Origin: Heterodontus francisci
Taxonomy: Eukaryota
Length of the DNA stretch: 64,000 bases
Reading direction: 5' to 3'
Assembly: GCF_036365525.1 (NCBI RefSeq)
Contig: NC_090395.1
Span: forward strand, 65,559,326-65,623,325
How positions within the stretch are numbered: the stretch's first letter is position 1; each line of letters opens with the position of its first letter. The notes beneath the pieces are model-generated. The model had not been told where the DNA came from. It was given only the letters and a program-made list of their open reading frames with translations, and ran no database searches. Both the position numbers and the translations under genes were made by a program. Positions 3,601 through 59,573 of the stretch are shown here, one piece after another.

Positions 3601-4250
3601 ACGACTTCATTTCTCTTTTCTCCCCCCCCACTTGAATGGCTCCCTCTACCACGGTGCTGTGGTCAGTTTGCTCATCCTCCCTACAGTCTCTGCTCTCGTC
3701 CACACAGGGAGCAGGAATCTCGAACCTGTTGGACAAGGACAATGGCTGAGGCTCCTGCAGCACTACCTCCTGGATCCCTCTACCTGCCTCACTCATAGTC
3801 ACACCCCCCTGTCCCTGACCACTGGCCAAATTCACGGTAGTTAATCTAAGGGGTGTGACTGCCACCTGAAACACAGTGTCCAGGTAACTCTCCCCCTCCC
3901 TGATGTGTCGCAATGTCCGAAGCTCAGACTCCAGCTCATCAACTCTGAGCCGGAGTTCCTCGAGCAGCCAACGCTTACTACAGATGTGTTCACCAGGAAC
4001 GACAATGGGGTCCACCAGCTCCCACATCATGCAGGTACAACACATCGCATGGCCCTGCATCTCTATTTTATATAATTAGATTTTAATTTGTTTTTTAAAT
4101 TTCCGACTGGTCTTTAGTTTTTAATCTGTAAAATATTTCTCCTATTCACCTTCAATTTGAAATCAACTTAGAATAGATAATTCAAATTAGCAGTTATTTA
4201 CCAACCAATGAACGTACGGTTTTCCTGTGATGACACTCTTTGTTTTATTT
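681..4250 (-). mobile_element. Decayed CR1 LINE, 5'-complete but missing its 3' end
   Basis: ORF1 pieces 3599-4060 (Cys knuckle, leucine zipper) and 3102-3296 (SGNH esterase, DGLHLN); ORF2 pieces 2779-3042, 2464-2778 (GDFN, SDH), 2051-2513 and 632-1864 (RT: NYRPVSLTS, QHGF, GVPQGS, SADD); stops and frameshifts between them. Confidence 0.93.
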
Positions 4251-7399: not shown

Positions 7400-7714
7400 C
7401 GGAAGATATTTGTAGCTCGACAGCAAACATTGGATCGAAGCCAGATTGTTCAATACCACAGCTGTACCATCCTGCATCGCCTGAGCGAAGATCCTTCATT
7501 GTAACAACAAATATTCCTTGTGTCTTGTTATCTGTGATTGACATTCTTTCATGTTGCCCATTTGATGTTACTAAAACTGAACACTGGTGATTCCAGCCAT
7601 GACACCAATATTTCACGTTTGACTGGTATTGCTGTGTCTCATAGTGACAATCTATTGTGATCAATCTTCCCACAATTCCTATTACGTTCTTTTTTGCCCA
7701 CAATGCACCTGAAA
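7400..7714 (-). CDS. Gene A exon 2: V-set Ig domain of a CD300/CMRF35/pIgR-like receptor
   Basis: ttgtctcctcag acceptor, G|GTACAT donor, 315 nt, phase 1-1; (V)SGALWA..ITIDCHY..KYWCHGWNHQC..RMSITDNKTQGIFVVTMKDL..DAGWYSCG..VELQIS; four Cys including the KYWC-x6-C pair of the CD300/pIgR family. Confidence 0.92.
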
Positions 7715-7969
7715 CTGAGGAGACAATATTTCAGAAATTGACCAGGAAATAACTGCTTGTTATAAACAGGTACATTTTAGTAAGTGTTACCACTGAGTAC
7801 AGATTCTATCTATTAATATATGGAATTCCTTCTAATTTGTGATGAAAGAAAACATTAGTATAGTGCCTTATCACGGCCTTAAGACGTGACAAAGCACTTC
7901 ACAGCAATGATTTTTTATTGAGCAAGAGTCACTTTTGTTATTGTGTCAGCTGTGAGTCAGTGCATTCTT

Positions 7970-8651
7970 GGAGGGAATTTTATGCTGAGGGTAGGGGTCT
8001 CGATGTCAGTGGAAACTGATGCTGAGATCCCTGTGCCGCTTCTTTTCCGGAAGTCCCAGTCTTGTAGAGCTGCCGGCCAGTCAGAGGCCAGCAGCTGCGG
8101 AGCCACCACAGAGTTGGTGGCTGCTACTGTACCTGTTGTGACCATACACTGAGGAGTGGCACTGGATCCGGGCTTAAGGTAATTCAGGTTGAGTGGGGTC
8201 TCATGGAGTGGGGGTCGCGGGAAGCGGATGATGGTCTGCAGCAAGGACGGGGGTGGCCCTCAGCGGGCCCCCTCCCCGTTCCCGATGCCGGATCCCTGAT
8301 TCAGGCACTAAGAGCATTTGAACAAAGGAAACCAGCCCCGACCAGACCTTGGAAGCTGCCTGCACAGTTTTTGTCGTCATGCTTCCCATGTAGCAACAAG
8401 GCCATCTGCTTCATGGGTTATTGCAGCTGAGACCGGAAGAGGCTCTTAATCTGGGGTTAATTACCCAGTTAGGGGCCTCAATTGGTGGCAATTGGTGATG
8501 GGGCATGAAGGCCATTCACAGGCCTCCTGCCACGGACTAAATTTTGGCGGAGGCGGGATGATGCCATAGTCCTCCCCCGCCATCATCCCCCCTGATATTA
8601 TGCTCTCCCCACCTTCAAACCTGTTGTGGAGGAGAGTATAAAATTCCACCC
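7970..8651. mobile_element. Non-autonomous Harbinger-like element (MITE)
   Basis: Imperfect TIRs GGAGGGAATTTTAT...ATAAAATTCCACCC; GC-rich body sharing GCCGGCCA(G/A)TCAGAG with 55997-56537. Confidence 0.6.
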
Positions 8652-8654
8652 CGG

Positions 8655-8885
8655 ATCTCTGAATCAGTAGATTTTGAGTTCAATTCCCACTCCAGAGAGC
8701 TGAGCATGAAATCTAGCCTGAATACCAGTGCAGTACAGATGGAGTGCTGCACTGTTGGAGGTACTGTCTTTCAGATGAATCATTAAACTGAGACCCTCAC
8801 TGCCCTCTCAGGTGGATGTAAAGTTTCCAATATAACTATTTTGAAGTAGAGCAGGGAAATTCTCCCCAGTGTCCTGCCCAACATT
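8655..8885 (+). mobile_element. DeuSINE/SacSINE1-like remnant
   Basis: Deu-domain-like CTGTCTTTCAGATGA..TAAACTGAG..TGCCCTCTCAGGTGGATGTAAA..GAAGTAGAGCAGGG..CCAGTGTCCTG; related copy at 45700-45989. Confidence 0.7.
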
Positions 8886-9165
8886 TGGGAAGGGAAGATT
8901 CAGGAACTTGTAGATAGACCAATGAGCAGGACCTTGAGAATAATAAACGCAGGATTATTCCCAGTGACACATGGTCTTCTCTATAAGAATAGTAAGATAA
9001 GGGAAGTAATTCTCTGGCTGGAGAGATGGCTCAGAAGAAAAGGCTTTGGATTCCTGCCACATCGGGGTCAATTCTGGATGAACAAAGGAACAAAGAACAA
9101 AGAAAATTACAGCACAGGAACAGGCCCTTCGGCCCTCCAAGCCTGCGCCGATCCAGATCCTCTAT

Positions 9166-12123
9166 CTAAACATGTCGCCTATTTTCTAAGGGTCTGTATC
9201 TCTTTTCTTCCTGCCCATTCATGTATCTGTCTAGATACATCTTAAAAGACGCCATCGTGCCCGCATCTACCACCTCCGCTGGCAACGCGTTCCAGGCACC
9301 CACCACCCTCTGCGTAAAGAACTTTCCACGCATATCCCCCCTAAACTTTTCCCCTTTCACTTTGAACTCGTGTCCTCTAGTAATTGAATCCCCCACTCTG
9401 GGAAAAAGCCTCTTGCTATCCACCCTGTCTATACCTCTCATGATTTTGTACACCTCAATCAGGTCCCCCCTCAACCTCCGCCTTTCTAATGAAAATAATC
9501 CTAATCTACTCAACCTCTCTTCATAGCTAGCGCCCTCCATACCAGGCAACATTCTGGTGAACCTCCTCTGCACCCTCTCCAAAGCATCCACATCCTTTTG
9601 GTAATGTGGCGACCAGAACTGCACGCAGTATTCCAAATGTGGCCGAACCAAAGTCCTATACAACTGTAACATGACCTGCCAACTCTTGTACTCAATACCC
9701 CGTCCGATGAAGGAAAACATGCCGTATGCCTTCTTGACCACTCTATTGACCTGCGTTGCCACCTTCAGGGAACAATGGACCTGAACACCCAAATCTCTCT
9801 GGACATCAATTTTCCCCAGGACTTTTCCATTTACTGTATAGTTCACTCTTGAATTGGATCTTCCAAAATGCATCACCTCGCATTTGCCCTGATTGAACTC
9901 CATCTGCCATTTCTCTGCCCAACTCTCCAATCTATCTATATTCTGCTGTATTCTCTGACAGTCCCCTTCACTATCTGCTACTCCACCAATCTTAGTGTCG
10001 TCTGCAAACTTGCTAATCAGTCCACCTATACTTTCCTCCAAATCATTAATGTATATCACAAACAACAGTGGTCCCAGCACGGATCCCTGTGGAACACCAC
10101 TGGTCACACGTCTCCATTTTGAGAAACTCCCTTCCACTGCTACTCTCTGTCTCCTGTTGCCCAGCCAGTTCTTTATCCATCTAGCTAGTACACCTTGGAC
10201 CCCATGCGCCTTCACTTTCTCCATCAGCCTGCCATGGGGAACCTTATCAAACTCCTTACTGAAGTCCATGTATATGACATCGACAGCCCTTCCCTCATCA
10301 ATCAACTTTGTCACTTCCTCAAAGAATTCTATTAAGTTGGTAAGACATGACCTTCCCTGCACAAAACCATGTTGCCTATCACTGATGAGCCCATTTTCTT
10401 CCAAATGGGAATAGATCCTATCCCTCAGTATCTTCTCCAGCAGCTTCCCTACCACTGACGTCAGGCTCACCGGTCTATAATTACCTGGATTATCCCTGCT
10501 ACCCTTCTTAAACAAGGGGACAACATTAGCAATTCTCCAGTCCTCCGGGACCTCACCCGTGTTTAAGGATGCTGCAAAGATATCTGTTAAGGCCCCAGCT
10601 ATTTCCTCTCTCGCTTCCCTCAGTAACCTGGGATAGATCCCATCCGGACCTGGGGACTTGTCCACCTTAATGCCCTTTAGAATACCCAACACTTCCTCCC
10701 TCCTTATGCCGACTTGACCCAGAGTAATCAAACATCTGTTCCGAACCTCAACATCCGTCATGTCCATCTCCTCGGTGAATACCGATGCAAAGTACTCGTT
10801 TAGAATCTCACCCATTTTCTCTGACTCCAAGCATAACATTCCTCCTTTGTCCTTTAGTGGGCCAATCCTTTCTCTAGTTACCCTCTTGCTCCTTATATAT
10901 GAATAAAAGGCTTTGGGATTTTCTTTAACCCTGTTTGCTAAAGATATTTCATGACCCCTTTTAGCCCTCTTAATTCCTCGTTTCAGATTGGTCCTACATT
11001 CCCGATATTCTTTCAAAGCTTCGTCTTTCATCAGCCGCCTAGACCTTATGTATGCTTCCTTTTTCCTCTTAGCTAGTCTCACAATTTCACCTGTCATCCA
11101 TGGTTCCCTAATCTTGCCATTTCTGTCCCTCATTTTCACAGGAACATGTCTCTCCTGCACGCTAATCAACCTCTCTTTAAAAGCCTCCCACATATCACAT
11201 GTGGATTTACCTTCAAAGAGCTGCTCCCAATCTACATTCCCCAGCTCCTGCCAAATTTTGGTATAGTTGGACTTCCCCCAATTTAGCACTCTTCCTTTAG
11301 GACCACTCTCGTCTTTGTCCATGAGTATTTTAAAGCTTACGGAATTGTGATCACTATTCCCAAAGTAGTCCCCTACTGAAACTTCAAACACCTGGCCGGG
11401 CTCATTCCCCAACACCAGGTCCAGTATGGCCCCTTCCCGAGTTGGACTATTTACATACTGCTCTAGAAAACCCTCCTGGATGCTCCTTACAAATTCTGCT
11501 CCATCTAGACCTCTAACACTAAGTGAATCCCAGTCAATGTTGGGAAAATTAAAATTTCCTATCACCACCACCCTGTTGCTCCTACATCTTTCCATAATCT
11601 GTTTACATATTTGTACCTCTATCTCACGCTCGCTGTTGGGAGGCCTGTAGTACAGCCCCAACATTGTTACCGCACCCTTCCTATTTCTGAGTTCTGTCCA
11701 TATTGCCTCACTGCTCGAGTCCTCCATAGTGCCCTCCTTCAGCACAGCTGTGATATCCTCTTTGACCAGTAATGCAACTCCTCCACCCCTTTTACCTCCC
11801 TCTCTATCCCGCCTGAAGCATCGATATCCTGGGATATTTAGTTGCCAATCATGCCCTTCCCTCAACCAAGTCTCAGTAATAGCAATAACATCATACTCCC
11901 AGGTACTAATCCAAGCCCTAAGTTCATCTGCCTTACCTACTACACTTCTTGCATTAAAACAAATGCACCTCAGACCACCAGTCCCTTTACATTCATCATC
12001 TGCTCCCTGCCTACTCTTCCCCTTAGTCACACTGATTTCATTATCTAGTTCCTTACAAGCTTTTGTTACTACCTCCTTACTGTCAACTGACCTCCTCAAT
12101 TGGTTCCCATCCCCCTGCCACAT
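9166..12123 (-). CDS. CR1 ORF2: APE endonuclease plus reverse transcriptase, 985 aa, uninterrupted
   Basis: EN motifs NARS, ITETW, YRPP, GNFN (canonical GDFN), LDL, SDH; RT motifs PGPDG, NYRPVSLTS, QHGF, GVPQGSVLGP, FADD; CR1 C-terminus RRRLRGDLIEVYK. Confidence 0.96.
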   Translation of the reverse strand: MWQGDGNQLRRSVDSKEVVTKACKELDNEISVTKGKSRQGADDECKGTGGLRCICFNARSVVGKADELRAWISTWEYDVIAITETWLREGHDWQLNIPGYRCFRRDREGGKRGGGVALLVKEDITAVLKEGTMEDSSSEAIWTELRNRKGAVTMLGLYYRPPNSEREIEVQICKQIMERCRSNRVVVIGNFNFPNIDWDSLSVRGLDGAEFVRSIQEGFLEQYVNSPTREGAILDLVLGNEPGQVFEVSVGDYFGNSDHNSVSFKILMDKDESGPKGRVLNWGKSNYTKIWQELGNVDWEQLFEGKSTCDMWEAFKERLISVQERHVPVKMRDRNGKIREPWMTGEIVRLAKRKKEAYIRSRRLMKDEALKEYRECRTNLKRGIKRAKRGHEISLANRVKENPKAFYSYIRSKRVTRERIGPLKDKGGMLCLESEKMGEILNEYFASVFTEEMDMTDVEVRNRCLITLGQVGIRREEVLGILKGIKVDKSPGPDGIYPRLLREAREEIAGALTDIFAASLNTGEVPEDWRIANVVPLFKKGSRDNPGNYRPVSLTSVVGKLLEKILRDRIYSHLEENGLISDRQHGFVQGRSCLTNLIEFFEEVTKLIDEGRAVDVIYMDFSKEFDKVPHGRLMEKVKAHGVQGVLARWIKNWLGNRRQRVAVEGSFSKWRRVTSGVPQGSVLGPLLFVIYINDLEESIGGLISKFADDTKIGGVADSEGDCQRIQQNIDRLESWAEKWQMEFNQGKCEVMHFGRSNSRVNYTVNGKVLGKIDVQRDLGVQVHCSLKVATQVNRVVKKAYGMFSFIGRGIEYKSWQVMLQLYRTLVRPHLEYCVQFWSPHYQKDVDALERVQRRFTRMLPGMEGASYEERLSRLGLFSLERRRLRGDLIEVYKIMRGIDRVDSKRLFPRVGDSITRGHEFKVKGEKFRGDMRGKFFTQRVVGAWNALPAEVVDAGTMASFKMYLDRYMNGQEEKRYRPLENRRHV

Positions 12124-13070
12124 TAGTTTAAACCCTCCCCAACAGCGTTAGCAAAAACACCCCCAAGGACATTGGTTCCAGTCCGGCCCAGGTGTAGACC
12201 GTCCAATTTGTAATAGTCCCACCTCCCCCAGAACCGGTCCCAATGTCCCAAAAATCTGAACCCCTCCTTCCTGCACCATCTCTCAAGCCACGCATTCATC
12301 CTGACTATTCTTTCATTTTTACTCTGACTATCACGTGGCACTGGTAGCAATCCTGAGATTACTACCTCTGAAGTCCTACTTTTTAACTTGGCTCCTAACT
12401 CCCTAAACTCTGCTTGTAGGACCTCATCCCGTTTTTTACCTATATCATTGGTGCCTATGTGCACAACGACAGCTGGCTGTTCACCCTCCCCCTTTAGAAT
12501 GTTCTGCAGCCAATCTGAGACATCCCTGACCCGTGCACCTGGGAGGCAACATACCATTCGGGAGTCTCGTTTTCGACCACAGAACCGCCTATCTACTCCC
12601 CTTACAATCGAATCCCCTACGACTATAGCCCTTCCACTCTTTTTCCCGCCCTTCTGAACAGCAGAGCCAGCCACGGTGCCATGAACCTGGCTACTGCTGC
12701 CTTCCCCTGGTGAGCCATCTCCCTCAACAGTAACCAAAACGGTATACTTGTTTTGGAGGGAGATGACCGCAGGGGACTCCTGCGCTGCCTTCCTGCTCTT
12801 TCTCTGCCTTTTGGTCACCCATTCCCTTTCTCCCTCAGCAATCCTAATCTGCGGTGTGACCAATTCACTAAACGTGCTATCCACGACCTCCTCAGCATCG
12901 CGCATGCTCCAAAGTGAGTCCATCCGCAGCTCGAGAGCCGTCATGCGGTCTAACAATAGCTGCAGTTGGACACACTTCCTGCACATGAAGGAGTCACGGA
13001 CATCAGCCGTGTCCCTGAGCTCCCACATTGAGCAAGAGGAGCATGACACGGGTCTGAGATCTCCTGCCAT
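12123..13070 (-). CDS. CR1 ORF1: zinc knuckle/leucine zipper plus SGNH esterase, 315 aa from the ATG at 13070
   Basis: CSSCSMW..CRKC, heptad leucines, VVGDSIVR, CLPGA, HIGTND, DGLHL; stop overlaps the ORF2 start as TAATG (12125-12121). Confidence 0.93.
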   Translation of the reverse strand: MAGDLRPVSCSSCSMWELRDTADVRDSFMCRKCVQLQLLLDRMTALELRMDSLWSMRDAEEVVDSTFSELVTPQIRIAEGEREWVTKRQRKSRKAAQESPAVISLQNKYTVLVTVEGDGSPGEGSSSQVHGTVAGSAVQKGGKKSGRAIVVGDSIVRGVDRRFCGRKRDSRMVCCLPGARVRDVSDWLQNILKGEGEQPAVVVHIGTNDIGKKRDEVLQAEFRELGAKLKSRTSEVVISGLLPVPRDSQSKNERIVRMNAWLERWCRKEGFRFLGHWDRFWGRWDYYKLDGLHLGRTGTNVLGGVFANAVGEGLN

Positions 13071-13248
13071 TTTTAATCTTAAGCTTAACTTAGTTAAATG
13101 AAAAAGGAATGAAAAGTTTTTTACCAATCACGATAAAACCAGAGAAATAGAAAAAGCCTTACCTTATATGCACACCAACGAGTCCTTTTTTTTGGTTAGA
13201 GGAGGAGGGCGGGTGGGAGACACTACAAGTGTGGTGTATCGGGTTCAG

Positions 13249-16200
13249 AAACCGCCCAAATATATAGTGTTTTACTTACCCAGCAGCCCCCTGGCCTCCG
13301 CCGAAAACAAAAGGAAATTAAGTTTACTTTCAAACTGACCATCCCAGCTGCTCACTCGCTCGCACTCTCTGCTCCCGAAAAAGCTGCTGCAATGAAAGGA
13401 AAGTTATTTTAAACCGCCCAAATATATAGTGTTTTACTTACCCAGCAGCCCCCTGGCCTCCGCCGAAAACAAAAGGAAATTAAGTTTACTTTCAAACTGA
13501 CCTTCCCAGCTGCTCACTCGCTCGCACTCTCTGCTCCCGAAAAAGCTGCTGCAATGAAAGGAAAGTTATTTTAAACCGCCCAAATATATAGTGTTTTACT
13601 TACCCAGCAGCCCCCTGGCCTCCGCCAAAGACAAAAGGAAATTAAGTTTACTTTCAAACTGACCTTCCCAGCTGCTCACTCGCTCGCACTCTCTGCTCCC
13701 GAAAAAGCTGCTGCAATGAAAGGAAAGTTATTTTAAACCGCCCAAATATATAGTGTTTTACTTACCCAGCAGCCCCCTGGCCTCCGCCGAAAACAAAAGG
13801 AAATTAAGTTTACTTTCAAACTGACCTTCCCAGCTGCTCACTCGCTTGCACTCTCTGCTCCCGAAAAAGCTGCTGCAATGAAAGGAAAGTTATTTTAAAC
13901 CGCCCAAATATATAGTGTTTTACTTACCCAGCAGTCCCCTGGCCTCCGCCGAAAACAAAAGGAAATTAAGTTTACTTTCAAACTGACCTTCCCAGCTGCT
14001 CACTCGCTCGCACTTTTTGCTCCCGAAAAAGCTGCTGCAATGAAAGGAAAGTTATTTTAAACCGCCCAAATATATAGTGTTTTACTTACCCAGCAGCCCC
14101 CTGGCCTCCGCCGAAAACAAAAGGAAATTAAGTTTACTTTCAAACTGACCTTCCCAGCTGCTCACTCGCTCGCACTCTCTGCTCCCGGAAAAGCTGCTGC
14201 AATGAAAGGAAAGTTATTTTAAACCGCCCAAATATATAGTGTTTTACTTACACAGCAGCCCCCTGGCCTCCGCCGAAAACAAAAGGAAATTAAGTTTACT
14301 TTCAAACTGACCTTCCCAGCTGCTCACTCGCTCGCACTCTCTGCTCCCGAAAAAGCTGCTGCAATGAAAGGAAAGTTATTTTAAACTGCCCAAATATATG
14401 GTGTTTTACTTACCCAGCAGTCCCCTGGCCTCCGCCGAAAACAAAAGGAAATTAAGTTTACTTTCAAACTGACCTTCCCAGCTGCTCACTCGCTCGCACT
14501 CTCTGCTCCCGAAAAAGCTGCTGCAATGAAAGGAAAGTTATTTTAAACCACCCAAATATATAGTGTTTTACTTACCCAGCAGCCCCCTGGCCTCCGCCGA
14601 AAACAAAAGGAAATTAAGTTTACTTTCAAACTGACCATCCCAGATGCTCACACGCTCGCACTCTCCTGCTCCCGAAAAAGCTGCTGCAATGAAAGGAAAG
14701 TTATTTTAAACTGCCCAAATATATAGTGTTTTACTTACCCAGCAGCCCCCTGGCCTCCGCCGAAAACAAAAGGATATGAAGTTTACTTTCAAACTGACCT
14801 TCCCAGCTGCTCACTCGCTTGCACTCTCTTGCTCCCGAAAAAGCTGCTGCAATGAAAGGAAAGTTATTTTAAACCGCCCAAATATATAGTGTTTTACTTA
14901 CCCAGCAGCCCCCTGGCCTCCGCTGAAAACAAAAGGAAATTAAGTTTACTTTCAAACTGACCTTCCCAGCTGCTCACTCGCTCGCACACTCTGCTCCCGA
15001 AAAAGCTGCTGCAATGAAAGGAAAGTTATTTTAAACCGCCCAAAAATATAGTGTTTTACTTACCCAGCAGCCCCCTGGCCTCCACCAAAAACAAAAGGAA
15101 ATTAAGTTTACTTTCAAACTGACCTTCCCAGCGGCTCACTCGCTCGCACTCTCTGCTCCCGAAAATGCTGCTGCAATGAAAGGAAAGTTATTTTAAACCA
15201 CCCAAATATATAGTGTTTTACTTCCCCAGCAGCCCCCTGGCCTCCGCCAAAAACAAAAGGAAATTAAGTTTACTTTCAAACTGACCTTCCCAGCTGCTCA
15301 CTCGCTCGCACTCTCTGCTCCCGAAAAAGCTGCTGCAATGATAGGAAAGTTATTTTAAACCGCCCAAATATATAGTGTTTTACTTACCCAGCAGCCCCCT
15401 GGCCTCTGCCGAAAACAAAAGGAAATTAAGTTTACTTTCAAACTGACCTTCCCAGCTGCTCACTCGCTCGCACTCTCTGCTCTCGAAAAAGCTGCTGCAA
15501 TGAAAGGAAAGTTATTTTAAACCGCCCAAATACATAGTGTTTTACTTACCCAGCAGCCCCCTGGGCTCCGCCGAAAACAAAAGGAAATTATTTTACTTTC
15601 AAACTGACCTTCCCAGCTGCTCACTCGCTCGCACTCTCTGCTCCCGAAAAAGCTGCTGCAATGAAAGGAAAGTTATTTTAAACCGCCCAAATATATAGTG
15701 TTTTACTTACCCAGCAGTCCCCTGGCCTCTGCCGAAAACAAAAGGAAATTAAGTTTACTTTCAAACTGACCTTCCCAGCTGCTCACTCGCTTGCACTCTC
15801 TGCTCCCGAAAAAGCTGCTGCAATGAAAGGAAAGTTATTTTAAACCGCCCAAATATATAGTGTTTTACTTACCCAGCAGCCCCCTGGCCTCTGCCGAAAA
15901 CAAAAGGAAATTAAGTTTACTTTCAAACTGACCTTCCCAGCTGCTCACTCGCTCGCACTCTCTGCTCCCGAAAAAGCTGCTGCAATGAAAGGAAAGTTAT
16001 TTTAAACCGCCCAAATATATAGTGTTTTACTTACCCAGCAGCCCCCTGGCCTCTGCCGAAAACAAAAGGATATGAAGTTTACTTTCAAACTGACCTTCCC
16101 AGCTAATCACTCGCTTGCACTCTCTTGCTCCCGAAAAAGCTGCTGCAATGAAAGGAAAGTTGTTTTAAACCGCCCAAATATATAGTGTTTCACTTACCCA

Positions 16201-19200
16201 GCAGCCCCCTGGCCTCCGCCGAAAACAAAAGGAAATTAAGTTTACTTTCAAACTGACCTTCCCAGCTGCTCACTTGCTCGCAATCTCTGCTCCCGAAAAA
16301 GCTGCTGCAATGAAAGGAAAGTTATTTTAAACCGCCCAAATATATAGTGTTTTACTTACCCAGCAGCCCCCTGGGCTCCGCCGAAAACAAAAGGAAATTA
16401 AGTTTACTTTCAAACTGACCTTCCCAGCTGCTCACTCGCTCGCACTCTCTGCTCCCGAAAAAGCTGCTGCAATGAAAGGAAAGTTATTTTAAACCGCCCA
16501 AATATATAATGTTTTACTTACCCAGCAGCCCCCTGGCCTCCGCCGAAAACAAAAGGAAATTAAGTTTACTTTCAAACTGACCTTCCCAGCTGCTCACTCG
16601 CTCGCACTCTCTGCTCCCGAAAAAGCTGCTGCAATGAAAGGAAAGTTATTTTAAACCACCCAAATATATAGTGTTTTACTTACCCAGCAGCCCCCTGGCC
16701 TCTGCCGAAAACAAAAGGAAATTAAGTTTACTTTCAAACTGACCTTCCCAGCTGCTCACTCGCTCGCACTCTCTGCTCTCGAAAAAGCTGCTGCAATGAA
16801 AGGAAAGTTATTTTAAACCGCCCAAATACATAGTGTTTTACTTACCCAGCAGCCCCCTGGGCTCCGCCGAAAACAAAAGGAAATTATTTTACTTTCAAAC
16901 TGACCTTCCCAGCTGCTCACTCGCTCGCACTCTCTGCTCCCGAAAAAGCTGCTGCAATGAAAGGAAAGTTATTTTAAACCGCCCAAATATATAGTGTTTT
17001 ACTTACCCAGCAGCCCCCTGGCCTCTGCCGAAAACAAAAGGATATGAAGTTTACTTTCAAACTGACCTTCCCAGCTAATCACTCGCTTGCACTCTCTTGC
17101 TCCCGAAAAAGCTGCTGCAATGAAAGGAAAGTTATTTTAAACCGCCCAAATATATAGTGTTTTACTTACCCAGCAGCCCCCTGGCCTCCGCCGAAAACAA
17201 AAGGAAATTAAGTTTACTTTCAAACTGACCTTCCCAGCTGCTCACTCGCTCGCACTCTCTGCTCCCGAAAAAGCTGCTGCAATGAAAGGAAAGTTATTTT
17301 AAACCGCCCAAATATATAGTGTTTTACTTACCCAGCAGTCCCCTGGCCTCCGCCGAAAACAAAAGGAAATTAAGTTTACTTTCAAACTGACCATCCCAGC
17401 TGCTCACTCGCTCGCACACTCTGCTCCCGAAAAAGCTGCTGCAATGAAAGGAAAGTTATTTTAAACCGCCCAAATATATAATGTTTTACTTACCCAGCAG
17501 CCCCCTGGCCTCCGCCGAAAACAAAAGGAAATTAAGTTTACTTTCAAACTGACCTTCCCAGCTGCTCACTCGCTCGCACTCTCTGCTCCCGAAAAAGCTG
17601 CTGCAATGAAAGGAAAGTTATTTTAAACTGCCCAAATATATAGTGTTTTACTTACCCAGCAGCCCCCTGGCCTCCGCTGAAAACAAAAGGAAATTAAGTT
17701 TACTTTCAGACTGACCTTCCCAGCTGCTCACTCGCTCGCACTCTCTGCTCTCGAAAAAGCTGCTGCAATGAAAGGAAAGTTATTTTAAACCGCCCAAATA
17801 CATAGTGTTTTACTTACCCAGCAGCCCCCTGGGCTCCGCCGAAAACAAAAGGAAATTATTTTACTTTCAAACTGACCTTCCCAGCTGCTCACTCGCTCGC
17901 ACTCTCTGCTCCCGAAAAAGCTGCTGCAATGAAAGGAAAGTTATTTTAAACCGCCCAAATATATAGTGTTTTACTTACCCAGCAGTCCCCTGGCCTCCGC
18001 CGAAAACAAAAGGAAATTAAGTTTACTTTCAAACTGACCTTCCCAGCTGCTCACTCGCTTGCACTCTCTGCTCCCTAAAAAGCTGCTGCAATGAAAGGAA
18101 AGTTATTTTAAACCGCCCAAATATATAGTGTTTTACTTACCCAGCAGCCCCCTGGCCTCCGCCGAAAACAAAAGGAAATTAAGTTTACTTTCAAACTGAC
18201 CTTCCCAGCTGCTCACTCGCTCGCACTCTCTGCTCCCGAAAAAGCTGCTGCAATGAAAGGAAAGTTATTTTAAACCGCCCAAATATATAGTATTTTACTT
18301 ACCCAGCAGCCCCCTGGCCTCTGCCGAAAACAAAAGGATATGAAGTTTACTTTCAAACTGACCTTCCCAGCTAATCACTCGCTTGCACTCTCTTGCTCCC
18401 GAAAAAGCTGCTGCAATGAAAGGAAAGTTATTTAAACCGCCCAAATATATAGTGTTTTACTTACCCAGCAGCCCCCTGGCCTCCGCCGAAAACAAAAGGA
18501 AATTAAGTTTACTTTCAAACTGACCTTCCCAGCTGGTCACTCGCTCGCACTCTCTGCTCCCGAAAAAGCTGCTGCAATGAAAGGAAAGTTATTTTAAACC
18601 GCCCAAATATATAGTGTTTTACTTACCCAGCAGTCCCCTGGCCTCCGCCGAAAACAAAAGGAAATTAAGTTTACTTTCAAACTGACCATCCCAGCTGCTC
18701 ACTCGCTCGCACTCTCTGCTCCCGAAAAAGCTGCTGCAATGAAAGGAAAGTTATTTTAAACCGCCCAAATATATAATGTTTTACTTACCCAGCAGCCCCC
18801 TGGCCTCCGCCGAAAACAAAAGGAAATTAAGTTTACTTTCAAACTGACCTTCCCAGCTGCTCACTCGCTCGCACTCTCTGCTCCCGAAAAAGCTGCTGCA
18901 ATGAAAGGAAAGTTATTTTAAACCGCCCAAATATATAGTGTTTTACTTACCCAGCAGCCCCCTGGCCTCTGCCGAAAACAAAAGGAAATTAAGTTTACTT
19001 TCAAACTGACCTTCCCAGCTGCTCACTCGCTCGCACTCTCTGCTCCCGAAAAAGCTGCTGCAATGAAAGGAAAGTTATTTTAAACCGCCCAAATATATAG
19101 TGTTTTACTTACCCAGCAGCCCCCTGGCCTCTGCCGCAAACAAAAGGAAATTAAGTTTACTTTCAAACTGACCTTCCCACCTGCTCACTCGCTCGCACTC

Positions 19201-28200: not shown

Positions 28201-31200
28201 CCTCTGCCGAAAACAAAAGGAAATTAAGTTTACTTTCAAACTGACCTTCCCAGCTGCTCACTCGCTCGCACTCACTGCTCCCGAAAAAGCTGCTGCAATG
28301 AAAGGAAAGTTATTTTAAACCGCCCAAATATATAGTGTTTTACTTACCCAGCAGCCCCCTGGCCTCCGCCGAAAACAAAAGGAAACTAAGTTTACTTTCA
28401 AACTGACCTTCCCAGCTGCTCAGTCGCTCGCACTCTCTGCTCCCGAAAAAGCTGCTGCAATGAAAGGAAAGTTATTTTAAACCGCCCAAGTATATAGTGC
28501 TTTACTTACCCAGCAGCCCCCTGGCCTCTGCCGAAAACAAAAGGAAATTAAGTTTCCTTTCAAACTGACCTTCCCAGCTGCTCACTCGCTCGCACTCTCT
28601 GCTCCCGAAAAAGCTGCTGCAGTGAAAGGAAAGTTATTTTAAACCGCCCAAATATATAGTGTTTTACTTACCCAGCAGCCCCCTGGCCTCCGCCAAAAAC
28701 AAAAGGAAATTAAGTTTACTTTCAAACTGACCTTCCCAGCTGCTCACTCGCTCGCACTCTCTGCTCCCGAAAATGCTGCTGCAATGAAAGGAAAGTTATT
28801 TTAAACCGCCCAAATATATAGTGTTTTACTTACCCAGCAGCCCCCTGGCCACCACCAAAAACAAAAGGAAATTAAGTTTACTTTCAAACTGACCTTCCCA
28901 GCTGCTCACTCGCTCGCACTCTCTGCTCCCGAAAAAGCTGCTGCAATGAAAGGAAAGTTATTTTAAACTGCCCAAATATATCGTGTTTTACTTACCCAGC
29001 AGCCCCCTGGCCTCTGCCAAAAACAAAAGGAAATTAAGTTTACTTTCAAACTGACCTTCCCAGCTGCTCACTCGCTCGCACTCTCTGCTCCCGAACAAGC
29101 TGCTGCAATGAAAGGAAAGTTATTTTAAACTGCCCAAATATAGAGTGTTTTACTTACCCAGCAGCCCCCTGGCCTCCGCCGAAAACAAAAGGAAATTAAG
29201 TTTACTTTCAAACTGACCTTCCCAGCTGCTCACTCGCTCGCACTCTCTGCTCCCGAAAAAGCTGCTGCAATGAAAGGAAAGTTATTTTAAACCGCCCAAA
29301 TATATAGTGTTATACTTACCCAGCAGCCCCCTGGCCTCCACCGAAAACAAAAGGAAATTAAGTTTACTTTCAAACTGACCTTCCCAGCTGCTCACTCGCT
29401 CGCACTCTCTGCTCCCGAAAAAGCTGCTGCAATGAAAGGAAAGTTATTTTAAACCGCCCAAATATATCATGTTTTACTTACCCAGCAGCCCCCTGGCCTC
29501 TGCCGAAAACAAAAGGAAATTAAGTTTACTTTCAAACTGACCTTCCCAGCTGCTCACTCGCTCGCACTCACTGCTCCCGAAAAAGCTGCTGCAATGAAAG
29601 GAAAGTTATTTTAAACCGCCCAAATATATAGTGTTTTACTTACCCAGCAGCCCCCTGGCCTCCGCCGAAAACAAAAGGAAACTAAGTTTACTTTCAAACT
29701 GACCTTCCCAGCTGCTCAGTCGCTCGCACTCTCTGCTCCCGAAAAAGCTGCTGCAATGAAAGGAAAGTTATTTTAAACCGCCCAAGTATATAGTGCTTTA
29801 CTTACCCAGCAGCCCCCTGGCCTCCGCCGAAAACAAAAGGAAATTAAGTTTCCTTTCAAACTGACCTTCCCAGCTGCTCACTCGCTCGCACTCTCTGCTC
29901 CCGAAAAAGCTGCTGCAGTGAAAGGAAAGTTATTTTAAACCACCCAAATATATAGTGTTTTACTTACCCAGCAGCCCCCTGGCCTCCGCCGAAAACAAAA
30001 GGAAATTAAGTTTACTTTCAAACTGACCTTCCCAGCTGCTCACTCGCTCGCACTCTCTGCTCCCGAAAATGCTGCTGCAATGAAAGGAAAGTTATTTTAA
30101 ACCGCCCAAATATATAGTGTTTTACTTACCCAGCAGCCCCCTGGCCACCACCAAAAACAAAAGGAAATTAAGTTTACTTTCAAACTGACCTTCCCAGCTG
30201 CTCACTCGCTCGCACTCTCTGCTCCCGAAAAAGCTGCTGCAATGAAAGGAAAGTTATTTTAAACCGCCCAAATATATCGTGTTTTACTTACCCAGCAGCC
30301 CCCTGGCCTCTGCCGAAAACAAAAGGAAATTAAGTTTACTTTCAAACTGACCTTCCCAGCTGCTCACTCGCTCGCACTCTCTGCTCCCGAAAAAGCTGCT
30401 GCAATGAAAGGAAAGTTATTTTAAACCGCCCAAATATATAGTGTTTTACTTACCCAGCAGCCCCCTGGCCTCCGCCGAAAACAAAAGGAAACTAAGTTTA
30501 CTTTCAAACTGACCTTCCCAGCTGCTCAGTCACTCGCACTCTCTGCTCCCGAAAAAGCTGCTGCAATGAAAGGAAAGTTATTTTAAACTGCCCAAATATA
30601 TAGTGTTTTACTTAACCAGCAGCCCCCTGGCCTCCGCCGAAAACAAATGGAAATTAAGTTTACTTTCAAACTGACCTTCCCAGCTGCTCACTCGCTCGCA
30701 CTCTCTGCTCCCGAAAAAGCTGCTGCAATGAAAGGAAAGTTATTTTAAACCGCCCAAATATATAGTGTTTTACTTACCCAGCAGCCCCCTGGCCTCCGCC
30801 GAAAACAAAAGGAAATTAAGTTTACTTTCAAACTGACCTTCCCAGCTGCTCACTCGCTCGCACTCTCTGCTCCCGAAAAAGCTGCTGCAAGGAAAGGAAA
30901 GTTATTTTAAACCACCCAGATATATAGTGTTTTACTTACCCAGCAGCCCCCGGGCCTCCGCTGAAAACAAAAGGAAATTAAGTTTCCTTTCAAACTGACC
31001 TTCCCAGCTGCTCACTCGCTCGCACTCTCTGCTCCCGAAAAAGCTGCTGCAATGAAAGGAAAGTTATTTTAAACCGCCCAAATATATAGTGTTTTACTTA
31101 CCCAGCAGCCCCCTGGCCTCTGCCTAAAACAAAAGGAAATTAAGTTTATTTTCAAACTGACCTTCCCAGCCGCTCACTCGCTCGCACTCTCTTCTCCCGA

Positions 31201-34200
31201 AAAATCTGCTGCAATGAAAGGAAAGTTATTTTAAACCGCCCAAATATATAGTGTTTTACTTACCCAGCAGCCCCCTGGCCTCCACCGAAAACAAAAGGAA
31301 ATTAAGTTTACTTTCAAACTGACCTTCCCAGCTGCTCACTCGCTCGCACTCTCTGCTCCCGAAAAAGCTGCTGCAATGAAAGGAAAGTTATTTTAAACCG
31401 CCCAAATATATAGTGTTTTACTTACCCAGCAGCCCCCTGGCCTCCGCCGAAAACAAAAGGAAACTAAGTTTACTTTCAAACTGACCTTCCCAGCTGCTCA
31501 GTCGCTCGCACTCTCTGCTCCCGAAAAAGCTGCTGCAATGAAAGGAAAGTTATTTTAAACTGCCCAAATATATAGTGCTTTACTTACCCAGCAGCCCCCT
31601 GGCCTCCGCCGAAAACAAAAGGAAATTAAGTTTCCTTTCAAACTGACCTTCCCAGCTGCTCACTCGCTCGCACTCTCTGCTCCCGAAAAAGCTGCTGCAA
31701 TGAAAGGAAAGTTATTTTAAACCGCCCAAATATATAGTGTTTTACTTAACCAGCAGCCCCCTGGCCTCCGCCGAAAACAAAAGGAAATTAAGTTTACTTT
31801 CAAACTGACCTTCCCAGCTGCTCACTCGCTCGCACTCTCTGCTCCCGAAAAAGCTGCTGCAATGAAAGGAAAGTTATTTTAAACCGCCCAAATATATAGT
31901 GTTTTACTTACCCAGCAGCCCCCTGGCCTCCGCCGAAAACAAAAGGAAATTAAGTTTACTTTCAAACTGACCTTCCCAGCTGCTCACTCGCTCGCACTCT
32001 CTGCTCCCGAAAAAGCTGCTGCAATGAAAGGAAAGTTATTTTAAACCACCCAGATATATAGTGTTTTACTTACCCAGCAGCCCCCTGGCCTCCGCCGAAA
32101 ACAAAAGGAAATTAAGTTTCCTTTCAAACTGACCTTCCCAGCTGCTCACTCGCTCGCACTCTCTGCTCCCGAAAAAGCTGCTGCAATGAAAGGAAAGTTA
32201 TTTTAAACCGCCCAAATATATAGTGTTTTACTTACCCAGCAGCCCCCTGGCCTCTGCCTAAAACAAAAGGAAATTAAGTTTACTTTCAAACTGACCTTCC
32301 CAGCCGCTCACTCGCTCGCACTCTCTTCTCCCGAAAAAGCTGCTGCAATGAAAGGAAAGTTATTTTAAACCGCCCAAATATATAGTGTTTTACTTACCCA
32401 GCAGCCCCCTGGCCTCCACCGAAAACAAAAGGAAATTAAGTTTACTTTCAAACTGACCTTCCCAGCTGCTCACTCGCTCGCACTCTCTGCTCCCGAAAAA
32501 GCTGCTGCAATGAAAGGAAAGTTATTTTAAACCGCCCAAATATATAGTGTTTTACTTACCCAGCAGCCCCCTGGCCTCCGCCGAAAACAAAAGGAAACTA
32601 AGTTTACTTTCAAACTGACCTTCCCAGCTGCTCAGTCGCTCGCACTCTCTGCTCCCGAAAAAGCTGCTGCAATGAAAGGAAAGTTATTTTAAACCGCCCA
32701 AGTATATAGTGCTTTACTTACCCAGCAGCCCCCTGGCCTCCGCCGAAAACAAAAGGAAATTAAGTTTCCTTTCAAACTGACCTTCCCAGCTGCTCACTCG
32801 CTCGCACTCTCTGCTCCCGAAAAAGCTGCTGCAATGAAAGGAAAGTTATTTTAAACCGCCCAAATATATAGTGTTTTACTTACCCAGCAGCCCCCTGGCC
32901 TCCGCCGAAAACAAAAGGAAATTAAGTTTACTTTCCAACTGACCTTCCCAGCTGCTCACTCGCTCGCACTCTCTGCTCCCGAAAAAGCTGCTGCAATGAA
33001 AGGAAAGTTATTTTAAACCGCCCAAATATATAGTGTTTTACTTACCCAGCAGCCCACCGGCCTCCACCGAAAACAAAAGGAAATTAAGTTTACTTTCAAA
33101 CTGACCTTCCCAGCTGCTCACTCGCTCGCACTCTCTGCTCCCGAAAAAGCTGCTGCAATGAAAGGAAAGTTATTTTAAACCGCCCAAATATATCATGTTT
33201 TACTTACCCAGCAGCCCCCTGGCCTCTGCCGAAAACAAAAGGAAATTAAGTTTACTTTCAAACTGACCTTCCCAGCTGCTCAGTCGCTCGCACTCTCTGC
33301 TCCCGAAAAAGCTGCTGCAATGAAAGGAAAGTTATTTTAAACCGCCCAAGTATATAGTGCTTTACTTACCCAGCAGCCCCCTGGCCTCCGCCGAAAACAA
33401 AAGGAAATTAAGTTTCCTTTCAAACTGACCTTCCCAGCTGCTCACTCGCTCGCACTCTCTGCTCCCGAAAAAGCTGCTGCAGTGAAAGGAAAGTTATTTT
33501 AAACCGCCCAAATATATAGTGTTTTACTTACCCAGCAGCCCCCTGGCCTCCGCCGAAAACAAAAGGAAATTAAGTTTACTTTCAAACTGACCTTCCCAGC
33601 TGCTCACTCGCTCGCACTCTCTGCTCCCGAAAATGCTGCTGCAATGAAAGGAAAGTTATTTTAAACCGCCCAAATATATAGTGTTTTACTTACCCAGCAG
33701 CCCCCTGGCCACCACCAAAAACAAAAGGAAATTAAGTTTACTTTCAAACTGACCTTCCCAGCTGCTCACTCGCTCGCACTCTCTGCTCCCGAAAAAGCTG
33801 CTGCAATGAAAGGAAAGTTATTTTAAACCGCCCAAATATATCGTGTTTTACTTACCCAGCAGCCCCCTGGCCTCTGCCGAAAACAAAAGGAAATTAAGTT
33901 TACTTTCAAACTGACCTTCCCAGCTGCTTACTCGCTCGCACTCTCTGCTCCCGAAAAAGCTGCTGCAATGAAAGGAAAGTTATTTTAAACCGCCCAAATA
34001 TATAGTGTTTTACTTACCCAGCAGCCCCCGGCCTCCGCCGAAAACAAAAGGAAACTAAGTTTACTTTCAAACTGACCTTCCCAGCTGCTCAGTCACTCGC
34101 ACTCTCTGCTCCCGAAAAAGCTGCTGCAATGAAAGGAAAGTTATTTTAAACTGCCCAAATATATAGTGCTTTACTTACCCAGCAGCCCACTGGCCTCCGC

Positions 34201-35916
34201 CGAAAACAAAAGGAAATTAAGTTTCCTTTCAAACTGACCTTCCCAGCTGCTCACTCGCTCGCACTCTCTGCTCCCGAAAAAGCTGCTGCAATGAAAGGAA
34301 AGTTATTTTAAACCGCCCAAATATATAGTGTTTTACTTAACCAGCAGCCCCCTGGCCTCCGCCGAAAACAAAAGGAAATTAAGTTTACTTTCAAACTGAC
34401 CTTCCCAGCTGCTCACTCGCTCGCACTCTCTGCTCCCGAAAAAGCTGCTGCAATGAAAGGAAAGTTATTTTAAACCGCCCAAATATATAGTGTTTTACTT
34501 ACCCAGCAGCCCCCTGGCCTCCGCCGAAAACAAAAGGAAATTAAGTTTACTTTCAAACTGACCTTCCCAGCTGCTCACTCGCTCGCACTCTCTGCTCCCG
34601 AAAAAGCTGCTGCAATGAAAGGAAAGTTATTTTAAACCACCCAGATATATAGTGTTTTACTTACCCAGCAGCCCCCTGGCCTCCGCCGAAAACAAAAGGA
34701 AATTAAGTTTCCTTTCAAACTGACCTTCCCAGCTGCTCACTCGCTCGCACTCTCTGCTCCCGAAAAAGCTGCTGCAATGAAAGGAAAGTTATTTTAAACC
34801 GCCCAAATATATAGTGTTTTACTTACCCAGCAGCCCCCTGGCCTCTGCCTAAAACAAAAGGAAATTAAGTTTATTTTCAAACTGACCTTCCCAGCCGCTC
34901 ACTCGCTCGCACTCTCTTCTCCCGAAAAAGCTGCTGCAATGAAAGGAAAGTTATTTTAAACCGCCCAAATATATAGTGTTTTACTTACCCAGCAGCCCCC
35001 TGGCCTCCACCGAAAACAAAAGGAAATTAAGTTTACTTTCAAACTGACCTTCCCAGCTGCTCACTCGCTCGCACTCTCTGCTCCCGAAAAAGCTGCTGCA
35101 ATGAAAGGAAAGTTATTTTAAACCGCCCAAATATATAGTGTTTTACTTACCCAGCAGCCCCCTGGCCTCCGCCGAAAGCAAAAGGAAACTAAGTTTACTT
35201 TCAAACTGACCTTCCCAGCTGCTCAGTCGCTCGCACTCTCTGCTCCCGAAAAAGCTGCTGCAATGAAAGGAAAGTTATTTTAAACCGCCCAAGTATATAG
35301 TGCTTTACTTACCCAGCAGCCCCCTGGCCTCCGCCGAAAACAAAAGGAAATTAAGTTTCCTTTCAAACTGACCTTCCCAGCTGCTCACTCGCTTGCACTC
35401 TCTGCTCCCGAAAAAGCTGCTGCAATGAAAGGAAAGTTATTTTAAACCGCCCAAATATATAGTGTTTTACTTACCCAGCAGCCCCCTGGCCTCCGCCGAA
35501 AACAAAAGGAAATTAAGTTTACTTTCCAACTGACCTTCCCAGCTGTTCACTCGCTCGCACTCTCTGCTCCCGAAAAAGCTGCTGCAATGAAAGGAAAGTT
35601 ATTTTAAACCGCCCAAATATATAGTGTTTTACTTACCCAGCAGCCCACCGGCCTCCGCCGAAAACAAAAGGAAATTAAGTTTACTTTCAAACTGACCTTC
35701 CCAGCTGCTCACTCGCTCGCACTCTCTGCTCCCGAAACAGCTGCTGCAATGAAAGGAAAGTTATTTTAAACCGCCCAAATATATAGTGTTTTACTTACCC
35801 AGCAGCCCCCTGGCCTCCGCCGAAAACAAAAGGAAATTAAGTTTCCTTTCAAACTGACCTTCCCAGCTGCTCACTCGCTCGCACTCCCTGCTCCCGAAAA
35901 AGCTGCTGCAATGAAA
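13249..35916. repeat. Tandem array of ~140 copies of a 162-bp monomer forming the 5' end of the CR1
   Basis: Unit starts at 13249, 13411, 13573 ... 35768 (22519/162 = 139.0), last unit partial; + consensus AAACCGCCCAAATATATAGTGTTTTACTTACCCAGCAGCCCCCTGGCCTCCGCCGAAAACAAAAGGAAATTAAGTTTACTTTCAAACTGACCTTCCCAGCTGCTCACTCGCTCGCACTCTCTGCTCCCGAAAAAGCTGCTGCAATGAAAGGAAAGTTATTTT; few substitutions per unit. Confidence 0.98.
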
Positions 35917-36978
35917 TGAGGAGCAGCCCGTGGAGGATAGGAGGATTTTACGAAGTTATTAGACCAATGGCCTTACTGGGAAAAGAACTCATGCTGTGGG
36001 GAAAGAGTTTAAACTAAAATGGCAGGAAGGAGGTTAAAAACAAGGTGAAGAGGCAGAGCGAAGACTAGAAGTGGAAAAGATATAGGAAAGATTAAACAGG
36101 GAAATGATAATATAAAAGAGATCAGATCAGAAAGAGGAAGGATAGAAAAGAGGATGATTACCAAACAAACAGAGCCAAATGCCAGTCAAAGTACATAAAA
36201 TATTCTGTGTAAAGTTGTTAAGTTAGAGACACAAAATTTTTATGGGGAGGTTTGATGTAATACAATTAACAGAGTCGTGGCTCAGAGTGGGGGGGAACTG
36301 GGAGTTTAACGTTGCTGGTTACAAAATAGATTAATCATAAATGGAGAAAAGGTGGCAATATTGATCAAAAATTCCATTGTAACAATATTGTAAGGTTAAT
36401 ATGGGTGGAAGTGTAAAAGCTGAATCTATTTGGTAACAGTTGAAGAAGGAGAAGAATACAGTTCCTTATTTGAAGAGTAATATAGACCAACCATCAACCA
36501 GTGAGGAACAGTGTCATTGACAGAGCCTCATGAAATAGTAATTCATCACCTATACTTTAGATGACAGAAACAATTGCAAAGTCAAGACGTGTTCTGTTTG
36601 AGGGATTATTATCACTGCAGTCTTTCGTGTTAATTGGGCATCAGATTACATTAAAAAAATCACTCTTTACAGATTAAAATGGGTTGTCTTTGTATTTTGA
36701 TTAAGTTATTTATGTAGCTTTTAAAAAAATAAATCGTTATTTTATTTTCCATTCCCAATTAATAATGCAGTTTAGTATTATTTGGTAAATATTTCTGTGG
36801 TACAATCGTATAGTCAAAAAGAGATGCAAGACTTACACAAATATTATGGATTTATTTTAGCTGAGTAGTTTGTGCCTTTACACGTCTCCAAGTATTTAAA
36901 CATCTTCACTGTATAAACCGTACACTGGACAGAAACTAACACTGATTATCTGAAGATCCAGCTCTGGCTGTTACTCAC

Positions 36979-37015
36979 CGGGTAGGGAACAAATGAGAAG
37001 AATCGGAATCCACAT
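36979..37015 (-). CDS. Gene A exon 1: signal peptide MWIPILLICSLP
   Basis: ATG TGG ATT CCG ATT CTT CTC ATT TGT TCC CTA CCC G|GTGAGT; the phase-1 donor joins the 7714 acceptor to give MWIPILLICSLPVSGALWA. Confidence 0.85.
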
Positions 37016-41750: not shown

Positions 41751-42136
41751 TTGATGATCCAAGATGGCTCCTGGGCTATAAGCTCCCTAGGAAGCTCCCT
41801 TGCTGTGCAACTCTACCCATCGCACATCAGTACATTAAAATTCAACAGAATTCTTTTGATTGATGTGATTTAGTGAATGAATAGCCACATGTGAGTAGAG
41901 GATGATGTTCTGCACCTTCGGGAACCTACAAACACAATAAGAAGCAAACAGTTGGCTGCAGTTTCTGTTTGGTATTCCTGACTGTCATGTACCCATGCGC
42001 CAGCCTTTAGAAGACTTCTGTAATATCCTTGTGCAACAGTTGTCAGTATTTTCATTGACTCCTGAGATCTACCACTCAGTTCCTGGAAGGTATATAAATG
42101 TTCAGGGTGTGGTAACTATAACTTCACTTAGAAGTT

Positions 42137-59258: not shown

Positions 59259-59573
59259 CGTAAGATATTTGTAGCTCTACAGCAAACATTGGATCGTGTC
59301 CAAGTTTTTCAATACCACAGCTGTACCATCCTGCATCTCCTGAGTGAAGATCCTTCATTGTAACAACAAATATTCCTTGTGTCTTGTTATCAGTGATTGA
59401 CATTCTTTCATGTTGCGAATTTGACTTTACTAAAACTGAGCACTGGCGAGTCCAGCCATGACACCAATATTTCACAGATGACTGGTACTGTTGTGCCCCA
59501 TAGTGACAATCTATTGTGATCGCTCTTCCCACAATGCCTGTTACTTCCTTTTCAGCACACAATACATCTGAAA
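59259..59573 (-). CDS. Gene B exon 2: V-set Ig domain, CD300/pIgR-like; paralogue of 7400-7714
   Basis: Same 315-nt phase 1-1 exon and splice sites; ITIDCHY..KYWCHGWTRQC..DAGWYSCG; 19 of ~105 aa differ from gene A; flanking intron sequence is also homologous. Confidence 0.92.

What the first reader, a model, noticed from the sequence alone, without database searches (positions are those of the whole stretch)
7715..36978. Intron 1 of an immune receptor inflated from ~2.4 kb to ~29.3 kb by one sense-oriented insertion
Seen: the leader and V exons are phase-compatible and undamaged but separated by a co-oriented CR1 plus array, whose outer end lies ~1.1 kb from the ATG. Inference: gene A may be silenced or mis-spliced, or array length may act as an expression dial. 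Conversely, the host promoter could drive the LINE in leukocytes.
Basis: partly seen in the sequence, partly recalled or inferred. Interest (0 to 1): 0.7.

Follow-up and report, generated by a model that had tools for sequence, protein, structure and literature searches.

The report
LINE promoter array as exon trap
A young jumping gene sits in the first intron of a shark immune-receptor gene, and its 162-base front-end unit has multiplied there to about 140 copies; the same unit supplies working splice sites at other places in this genome, so the array likely diverts this gene's transcript into a stop codon, which is untested for this gene itself.

Summary
Observation confirmed. Intron 1 (7715-36978, minus strand, 29,264 bp) of a pIgR/CD300-like receptor gene holds one sense-oriented, full-length CR1 LINE with both ORFs open. 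Removing it leaves about 2.43 kb; seven paralogous introns are 1.7-4.1 kb. The 22.7-kb array is about 140 copies of this family's 162-bp 5' unit. The family has at least 1,700 copies, typically with 1-3 units, and another copy has 230. The array most likely grew in place.

New here: the unit carries a splice acceptor and two donors that are in use. The genome holds 183 exact junction matches of the spliced form. Of 4 loose ends tested from RNA-like contigs, 3 are splices between a unit and outside sequence at other loci, two of them into the acceptor. A splice from gene A's leader into the array meets an in-frame stop in 133 of 139 units.

So an exon trap is the likeliest effect, but no transcript of gene A was seen, spliced either way. 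The 'expression dial' is untested (one haplotype). 'Host promoter drives the LINE' found no support. It is a new variant of known L1/SVA behaviour.

The parts
36979..37015 (-). Gene A leader exon, coding part (12 codons plus 1 base), donor GTGAGT
7715..36978 (-). Gene A intron 1, 29,264 bp; about 2.43 kb without the insertion
7400..7714 (-). Gene A V-set Ig exon, pIgR/CD300-like, open frame. Its C2-type Ig, stalk and Arg-bearing transmembrane exons lie beyond the window's left end (about 2.9, 8.5 and 9.8 kb before base 1)
13249..35916 (-). Array of about 140 x 162-bp CR1 5' UTR units with nested block duplications. Each unit has a tandem (NAGNAG) acceptor after positions 16 and 19, donors after 63 and 123, a TATA-like box at 137 and a GC box at 146
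35906..35921 (-). Outer end of the element at the family's usual start position (unit position 6-7), and the first acceptor, 1,073 nt downstream of the leader donor
13071..13248 (-). Unique tether between the last unit and ORF1
12123..13070 (-). CR1 ORF1, 315 aa, GDSL/SGNH esterase domain, open
9166..12147 (-). CR1 ORF2 frame, 993 aa stop to stop, endonuclease plus reverse transcriptase, open
9078..9110 (-). CR1 3' short-repeat tail and 3-4 bp target-site duplication (second copy at about 35916-35918)
59269..59562 (-). Neighbouring paralogue (gene B) V exon, 84% identical in protein; its C2-type exon is at about 57471-57800

Best explanation
A full-length CR1 LINE lies in sense in intron 1 of a pIgR/CD300-like receptor gene; its 162-bp 5' unit likely multiplied in place to about 140 copies, and because that unit works as a splice acceptor and donor at other loci, the array likely traps this gene's leader exon into a premature stop and lowers its full-length mRNA. 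Shown: the anatomy; the unit is the family's 5' end; spliced forms of the unit exist in the genome and in RNA-like contigs; the sites are intact here; the stop is in frame. Inferred: growth by unequal exchange after insertion; promoter activity of the unit (TATA-like box about 30 nt before where copies begin); trapping and decay of gene A's transcript. The event is most likely an insertional accident in a redundant cluster, not an adaptation.
For: Family: 1,700 exact unit-to-tether junctions. Of 30 copies taken in positional order, 28 have 9 or fewer unit segments, median 2; the other two have 15 and 47. Copies start at unit positions 1-13 in 28 of 29 and 4-13 in 24 of 28 with a visible end; this element starts at 6-7. 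In-place growth: block duplications differ by 0.3-0.9%, against 1.5-3.3% between CR1 bodies; 11 of 25 shared non-CpG variants are absent from 439 units at 35 other loci; one other copy carries a spliced junction three times at a 372-bp period. Live splice sites: 7 of 29 and 3 of 30 copies have internal joins, all 11 joins at donor 63 or 123 to acceptor 16 or 19. Genome-wide 167 plus 16 exact junctions, reversed controls 0, including runs of 44-47-nt micro-exons with mixed acceptors. RNA-like contigs: 3 of 4 loose ends tested are splices - upstream donor into the outermost unit's acceptor over 442 nt, with the copy's private base matching; upstream donor into an acceptor 24.6 kb away; unit donor to a host acceptor 66 kb away. 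Here: acceptor AG intact in 139 and 137 of 139 units, donor GT in 137 and 129; in-frame TGA in 133 of 139.
Against: No transcript of gene A was observed, trapped or normal. Vertebrate introns of 29 kb are ordinarily spliced, and weak 44-47-nt exons are often skipped (established knowledge): most family copies carry no spliced join (22 of 29, 27 of 30). All gene A exons found are open, so there is no sign of long relaxation. CpG transitions dominate (11 of 12 CpG positions hit, against 13 of 62 other C/G positions), so the array may be methylated and act, if at all, by silencing. Six of 139 units give in-frame stop-free exons. One loose end was plain genomic flank. The 24.6-kb case rests on a 30-mer found at 3 loci, only one of which had a same-strand unit within 60 kb. 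One copy seen has a join from position 63 that does not fall on a canonical acceptor. The runs are only guessed to be RNA and come from one sample.
Confidence: 0.6

Rival explanations
1. Neutral passenger: the spliceosome skips the whole 26.8-kb insertion and gene A is expressed about normally.
For: All gene A exons found are intact. The leader donor and V acceptor match those of paralogues. Most family copies show no spliced join. Arrays of 21-230 units exist at six other loci, so growth is a family habit and needs no selection.
Against: An outermost unit with a poorer pyrimidine tract than here did capture an upstream donor in an RNA-like contig. There are 139 intact acceptors, the first only 1,073 nt from the leader donor.
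Confidence: 0.2
2. Transcriptional silencing: methylation or heterochromatin on the 22.7-kb array spreads over the 1.1 kb to the promoter, or stalls elongation, so little pre-mRNA is made to be mis-spliced.
For: CpG-transition excess in the array points to germline methylation; the outer end is 1,099 bp from the ATG.
Against: The signature is historical and germline; no somatic methylation data. Family units are present in RNA-like contigs and splice to host exons, so the family is not uniformly silent.
Confidence: 0.12
3. Expression dial: array length is polymorphic and tunes receptor level, more units giving more trapping or more internal starts.
For: Recent block duplications (0.3-0.9%, longest exact repeat 1,020 bp) imply ongoing length change. 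Mouse L1 promoter output depends on unit number for one and two units (PMC9022269, passages).
Against: One haplotype only; no expression data. Trapping at the first acceptors would probably saturate long before 140 units (inference).
Confidence: 0.05
4. The host promoter drives the intact CR1 in leukocytes, or the array is largely an assembly artefact.
For: The CR1 is sense to the gene with both ORFs open. The array length was not confirmed with reads.
Against: No leader sequence outside the cluster. A leader-to-unit splice would put a short stop-ended ORF ahead of ORF1. 90 distinct units of 139 and nested duplications with private changes do not look like false duplication.
Confidence: 0.03

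Closest known systems
Mouse L1Md monomer promoters (A, Tf, Gf) with tether (PMC6454616 and PMC9022269, passages read)
   Same: Tandem 5' units, a tether before ORF1, variable unit number, rare very long arrays put down to unequal crossing-over. PMC9022269 notes cryptic splice sites in L1spa monomers that may explain 22 spliced genomic copies.
   Different: CR1, not L1. Arrays of 140 and 230 units against a mouse maximum of 50 (99% have 10 or fewer). Here each unit carries both an acceptor and donors, so it can act as a micro-exon. TATA-like layout. Promoter activity was not assayed here.
Human L1 SpIREs, spliced integrated retrotransposed elements (PMC5860796, abstract and outline only)
   Same: Copies made from RNA spliced within the 5' UTR.
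   Different: Splicing is between repeated units, can be serial, and may leave whole units behind, whereas the abstract describes SpIREs as mostly dead ends with weaker promoters.
SVA exon trapping and the intronic SVA in TAF1 (PMC9148063, passages)
   Same: An upstream host exon is spliced to an acceptor inside a retroelement; a repeat-bearing insertion sits in an intron.
   Different: Autonomous LINE with about 140 acceptors in series. That repeat length grades the TAF1 effect is recalled, not seen in the passages read.
TE-derived satellite DNA (review PMC9659126, passages)
   Same: A segment of a retroelement amplified in tandem.
   Different: The CR1 case listed there (chicken HinfI) derives from ORF2 and the 3' UTR; here the 5' unit expands while still attached to an intact element inside a gene.
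Elasmobranch pIgR-like / CMRF35-like V+C2 receptors (database names)
   Same: Leader, V, C2-type Ig, stalk and transmembrane exon; the Arg-bearing transmembrane type occurs in 9 of 53 relatives.
   Different: Names are automatic. Orthology to mammalian CD300 or pIgR was not tested; no paper held all five terms searched.

Membership tests
CR1 LINE (canonical) | ORF1 with esterase domain (PMC13343379, one passage) | tested here: met
   PF13472, E 9e-14
CR1 LINE (canonical) | ORF2 with APE-type endonuclease and reverse transcriptase | tested here: met
   PF03372, PF14529, PF00078
CR1 LINE (canonical) | 3' short tandem-repeat tail in place of poly(A), short or no target duplication (criterion recalled) | tested here: met
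   Tail and 3-4 bp duplication
CR1 LINE (canonical) | Reverse-transcriptase phylogeny within CR1 rather than L2 or another CR1-group clade | not tested
   No tree built
L1Md-like monomeric 5' UTR | Tandem units plus tether in most copies, variable number | tested here: met
L1Md-like monomeric 5' UTR | Copies start at a fixed place in the unit | tested here: met
   28 of 29 at positions 1-13; 24 of 28 at 4-13
L1Md-like monomeric 5' UTR | Unit has promoter activity | tested here: inconclusive
   TATA-like box about 30 nt before the starts and one unit-to-host spliced contig; no assay, and contigs cannot show starts
SpIRE-type spliced copies (other family members) | Internal deletion bounded by GT and AG in an integrated copy | tested here: met
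   11 of 11 joins in 59 loci; 183 exact matches genome-wide; one non-canonical join seen elsewhere
Exon trap on gene A | Sense-oriented intact acceptor downstream of a host donor, stop in frame | tested here: met
Exon trap on gene A | Host leader joined to the acceptor in RNA | tested here: inconclusive
   Leader not covered by any contig of the three RNA-like runs
pIgR/CD300-like receptor | V-set domain most like pIgR and CD300 | tested here: met
   PF07686; best solved structures are pIgR and CMRF35-like molecules
pIgR/CD300-like receptor | Orthology, leukocyte expression or ligand | not tested
   No tree; tissue of the runs not on record

The most novel reading that the evidence does not exclude
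This CR1 family's 5' unit is a combined promoter and micro-exon. RNA splicing trims its arrays at each transposition and DNA recombination regrows them in place, so the family's 1,700 or more copies act as mobile exon traps and alternative first exons across a shark genome. At this locus a length-variable array of about 140 traps sets how much of an activating immune receptor is made.
Probability: 0.12. Interest if true: 0.8.

Novelty: new variant of a known kind. Interest (0 to 1): 0.55.

Why it matters
It shows how one retrotransposon insertion can keep growing after it lands and become a 23-kb run of splice sites and promoter-like units inside a gene. The genome itself records that those splice sites work. 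If gene A is trapped, this is a simple route to switching off members of a fast-evolving immune-receptor cluster and to inflating introns in giant shark genomes, testable with one RT-PCR. The splice-site finding applies to the whole family, whatever happens at gene A.

Tried and rejected
Expression of gene A: no RNA holder listed. In the RNA-like run X20, V-exon contigs match the neighbours (one fits gene B at 26 of 26 sites; two fit other paralogues by difference counts), and at several positions all depth carries non-A letters, while DNA run X1 holds gene A's own sequence. The leader was not covered by X20-X22 at 90% likeness, paralogous leaders included. Contigs drop rare forms, so neither blank is used as evidence. 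Empty allele or polymorphism: no contig bridged either insertion junction; undecided. One of four loose ends (X22) proved to be genomic flank. Copy L093, which starts at the acceptor, has an older LINE as flank and shows no transduction. First transmembrane search missed gene A's exon because its type differs; found. Stalk search by tblastn failed; an exon scan found a candidate. Two intron lengths were mis-paired and replaced. Deletion by microhomology as the cause of the joins was rejected because four join types all fall on GT and AG and some runs mix acceptors; same-type serial joins could still be DNA duplications. Literature: 8 searches listed nothing on spliced CR1 monomer arrays; only listings were seen for papers not named elsewhere, subscription papers are not covered and no supplements were read. 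Earlier-findings look-ups by place and by sequence were empty.

Full report
Verdict.

The gene. Gene A lies on the minus strand. Its leader (37015-36979) and V exon (7714-7400) join in phase without a stop, as in named relatives. The V domain is a V-set Ig most like pIgR and CD300; its 53 longer relatives are all from sharks and rays. It is one of 21 such V matches within 0.65 Mb. Beyond the window's left end gene A has an open C2-type Ig exon, a candidate stalk exon and a transmembrane exon with an arginine, a type seen in 9 of 53 relatives and, from established knowledge, typical of activating receptors. Intron 1 is 29,264 bp; seven paralogous introns are 1.7-4.1 kb. Both halves of the intron align end to end with a paralogue's intron 1, which fixes the leader-V pairing and shows the empty site with a 3-4 bp duplication.

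The insertion. It is a CR1-type LINE with open ORF1 (esterase) and ORF2 (endonuclease, reverse transcriptase), 96.7-98.5% identical to other copies, headed by 139.9 units of 162 bp. The unit is the family's 5' end. There are 1,700 exact unit-to-tether junctions in the genome, a lower bound. In the 29 best-matching other loci there are 2-10 unit segments (three loci share one flank). In the first 30 loci by position the median is 2 and 28 have 9 or fewer (one repeats a locus of the first set, two share a flank); the other two have 15 and 47. A search for long arrays (38 of 1,916 candidates scored) led to copies with 16, 21, 23, 30, 39, 47 and 230 units, each attached to a CR1 body or tether. 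This array is thus the second longest of those seen, far out in the tail but not unique. Copies begin at nearly the same place in the unit, about 30 nt after a TATA-like box in the preceding unit, and so does this one. Promoter activity is inferred from that, not assayed.

How the array grew. 90 of 139 units are distinct and fall into nested block duplications that differ by 0.3-0.9%; the longest exact repeat is 1,020 bp; 11 of 25 shared non-CpG variants are absent from 439 units at 35 other loci, the other 14 occur at 1-6 loci. This fits unequal exchange after insertion, the explanation offered for the 50-unit mouse record (PMC6454616, passages), and argues against wholesale misassembly, though no long reads were available. 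CpG transitions dominate, consistent with germline methylation.

The new finding: the unit is a splice module. It has a tandem acceptor after positions 16 and 19 and donors after 63 and 123. Seven of 29 and 3 of 30 copies have internal joins, and all 11 joins link one of these donors to one of these acceptors. Exact patterns find 167 and 16 such junctions genome-wide, with reversed controls at 0. Some copies are runs of 44-47-nt micro-exons with mixed acceptors, so internal units can be taken up as cassette exons; one copy has a junction triplicated as DNA. One join seen is not canonical. In three runs guessed to be RNA, from one sample, loose ends show both position-63 junctions. I traced 4 further loose ends, of 18 listed for those runs. 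One is genomic flank. One joins a unit donor to a host acceptor 66 kb downstream. One joins an upstream donor to an acceptor 24.6 kb away, at 1 of 3 candidate loci. One joins an upstream donor to the outermost unit of a copy across 442 nt, with that copy's private base present. The last is the same geometry as at gene A.

Consequence for gene A (inferred). In this array the acceptor AG is intact in 139 and 137 of 139 units and the donor GT in 137 and 129. A splice from the leader into either acceptor reaches TGA about ten codons on in 133 of 139 units; six units with a one-base insertion give stop-free in-frame exons. The first acceptor is 1,073 nt from the leader donor, against 29,264 nt for the V acceptor. 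The likeliest effect is a partial or strong loss of full-length mRNA. Against this: most family copies carry no spliced join, long introns are routinely spliced, gene A's exons show no decay, and methylation could silence the region instead. Contigs of gene A's neighbours, but not of gene A, were seen in one run; this is not counted as evidence (see Tried and rejected).

The dial cannot be tested on one haplotype. Host-driven LINE expression left no leader-bearing copy outside the cluster, which addresses heritable events only.

Against what is known. Monomer arrays and occasional spliced copies are described for mouse L1 (PMC6454616, PMC9022269; passages), spliced copies for human L1 (PMC5860796; abstract and outline), exon trapping for SVA (PMC9148063; passages), satellites from retroelements in a review (PMC9659126; passages). 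A recent CR1 survey mentions only 1-5 subunits near the 5' UTR of some ORF1-less elements (PMC13343379; one passage). Earlier notes of this scan report monomer-headed shark CR1s, one with 118 units; the lines shown do not mention splicing. Eight searches found no account of spliced CR1 monomer arrays. The parts are known; their combination and scale in a CR1, inside an immune-receptor intron, is a new variant. Interest 0.55.

Noticed in passing
G000:C13:109,575,931-109,617,400 (L041-L044, L051): A second full-length copy of the family with 230 units, about 37 kb; its units are 93% like those here. Gene context unknown.
   Followed up: partly
G000:C1:265,956,800 to 266,023,023 (L072, L079): An RNA-like contig joins a CR1 unit to a host acceptor 66 kb downstream: a likely LINE-derived alternative first exon. 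Host gene not identified.
   Followed up: partly
window 59269-59562 and the 30 kb to the right of the window: Gene B's V exon has no adjacent leader, yet gave the deepest V contig in run X20. The nearest leader is 29 kb upstream, before a V exon with two stops; V-C2 units repeat in tandem, which suggests exon skipping or a multi-domain gene.
   Followed up: partly
L036/L035, about 9.8 kb before window base 1: Gene A's Arg-bearing transmembrane exon has a TGA four codons before the exon end, where gene B reads on; the short tail is cut further.
   Followed up: no
G000:C25:65,665,400-65,666,450 and 65,506,860-65,507,100: Two more copies of the same CR1 family lie in the receptor cluster, one with about 7 units on the genes' strand and one on the opposite strand.
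   Followed up: no
G000:C25:65.24-65.89 Mb: Cluster of at least 21 pIgR/CD300-like V exons with two transmembrane types, Arg-bearing short-tailed and uncharged; a paired-receptor-like family for which one search found no paper.
   Followed up: partly
window 46900-50300: Fragmented ORFs that look like a Harbinger-type transposase and its partner (label recalled, not tested).
   Followed up: no
window 632-4075, 4860-6190, 39974-41775: Older decayed LINE copies in gene A's second intron and between the genes.
   Followed up: no
L090, L093, L100: A subfamily of the unit has lost the GT after position 63, possibly an escape from self-splicing.
   Followed up: no
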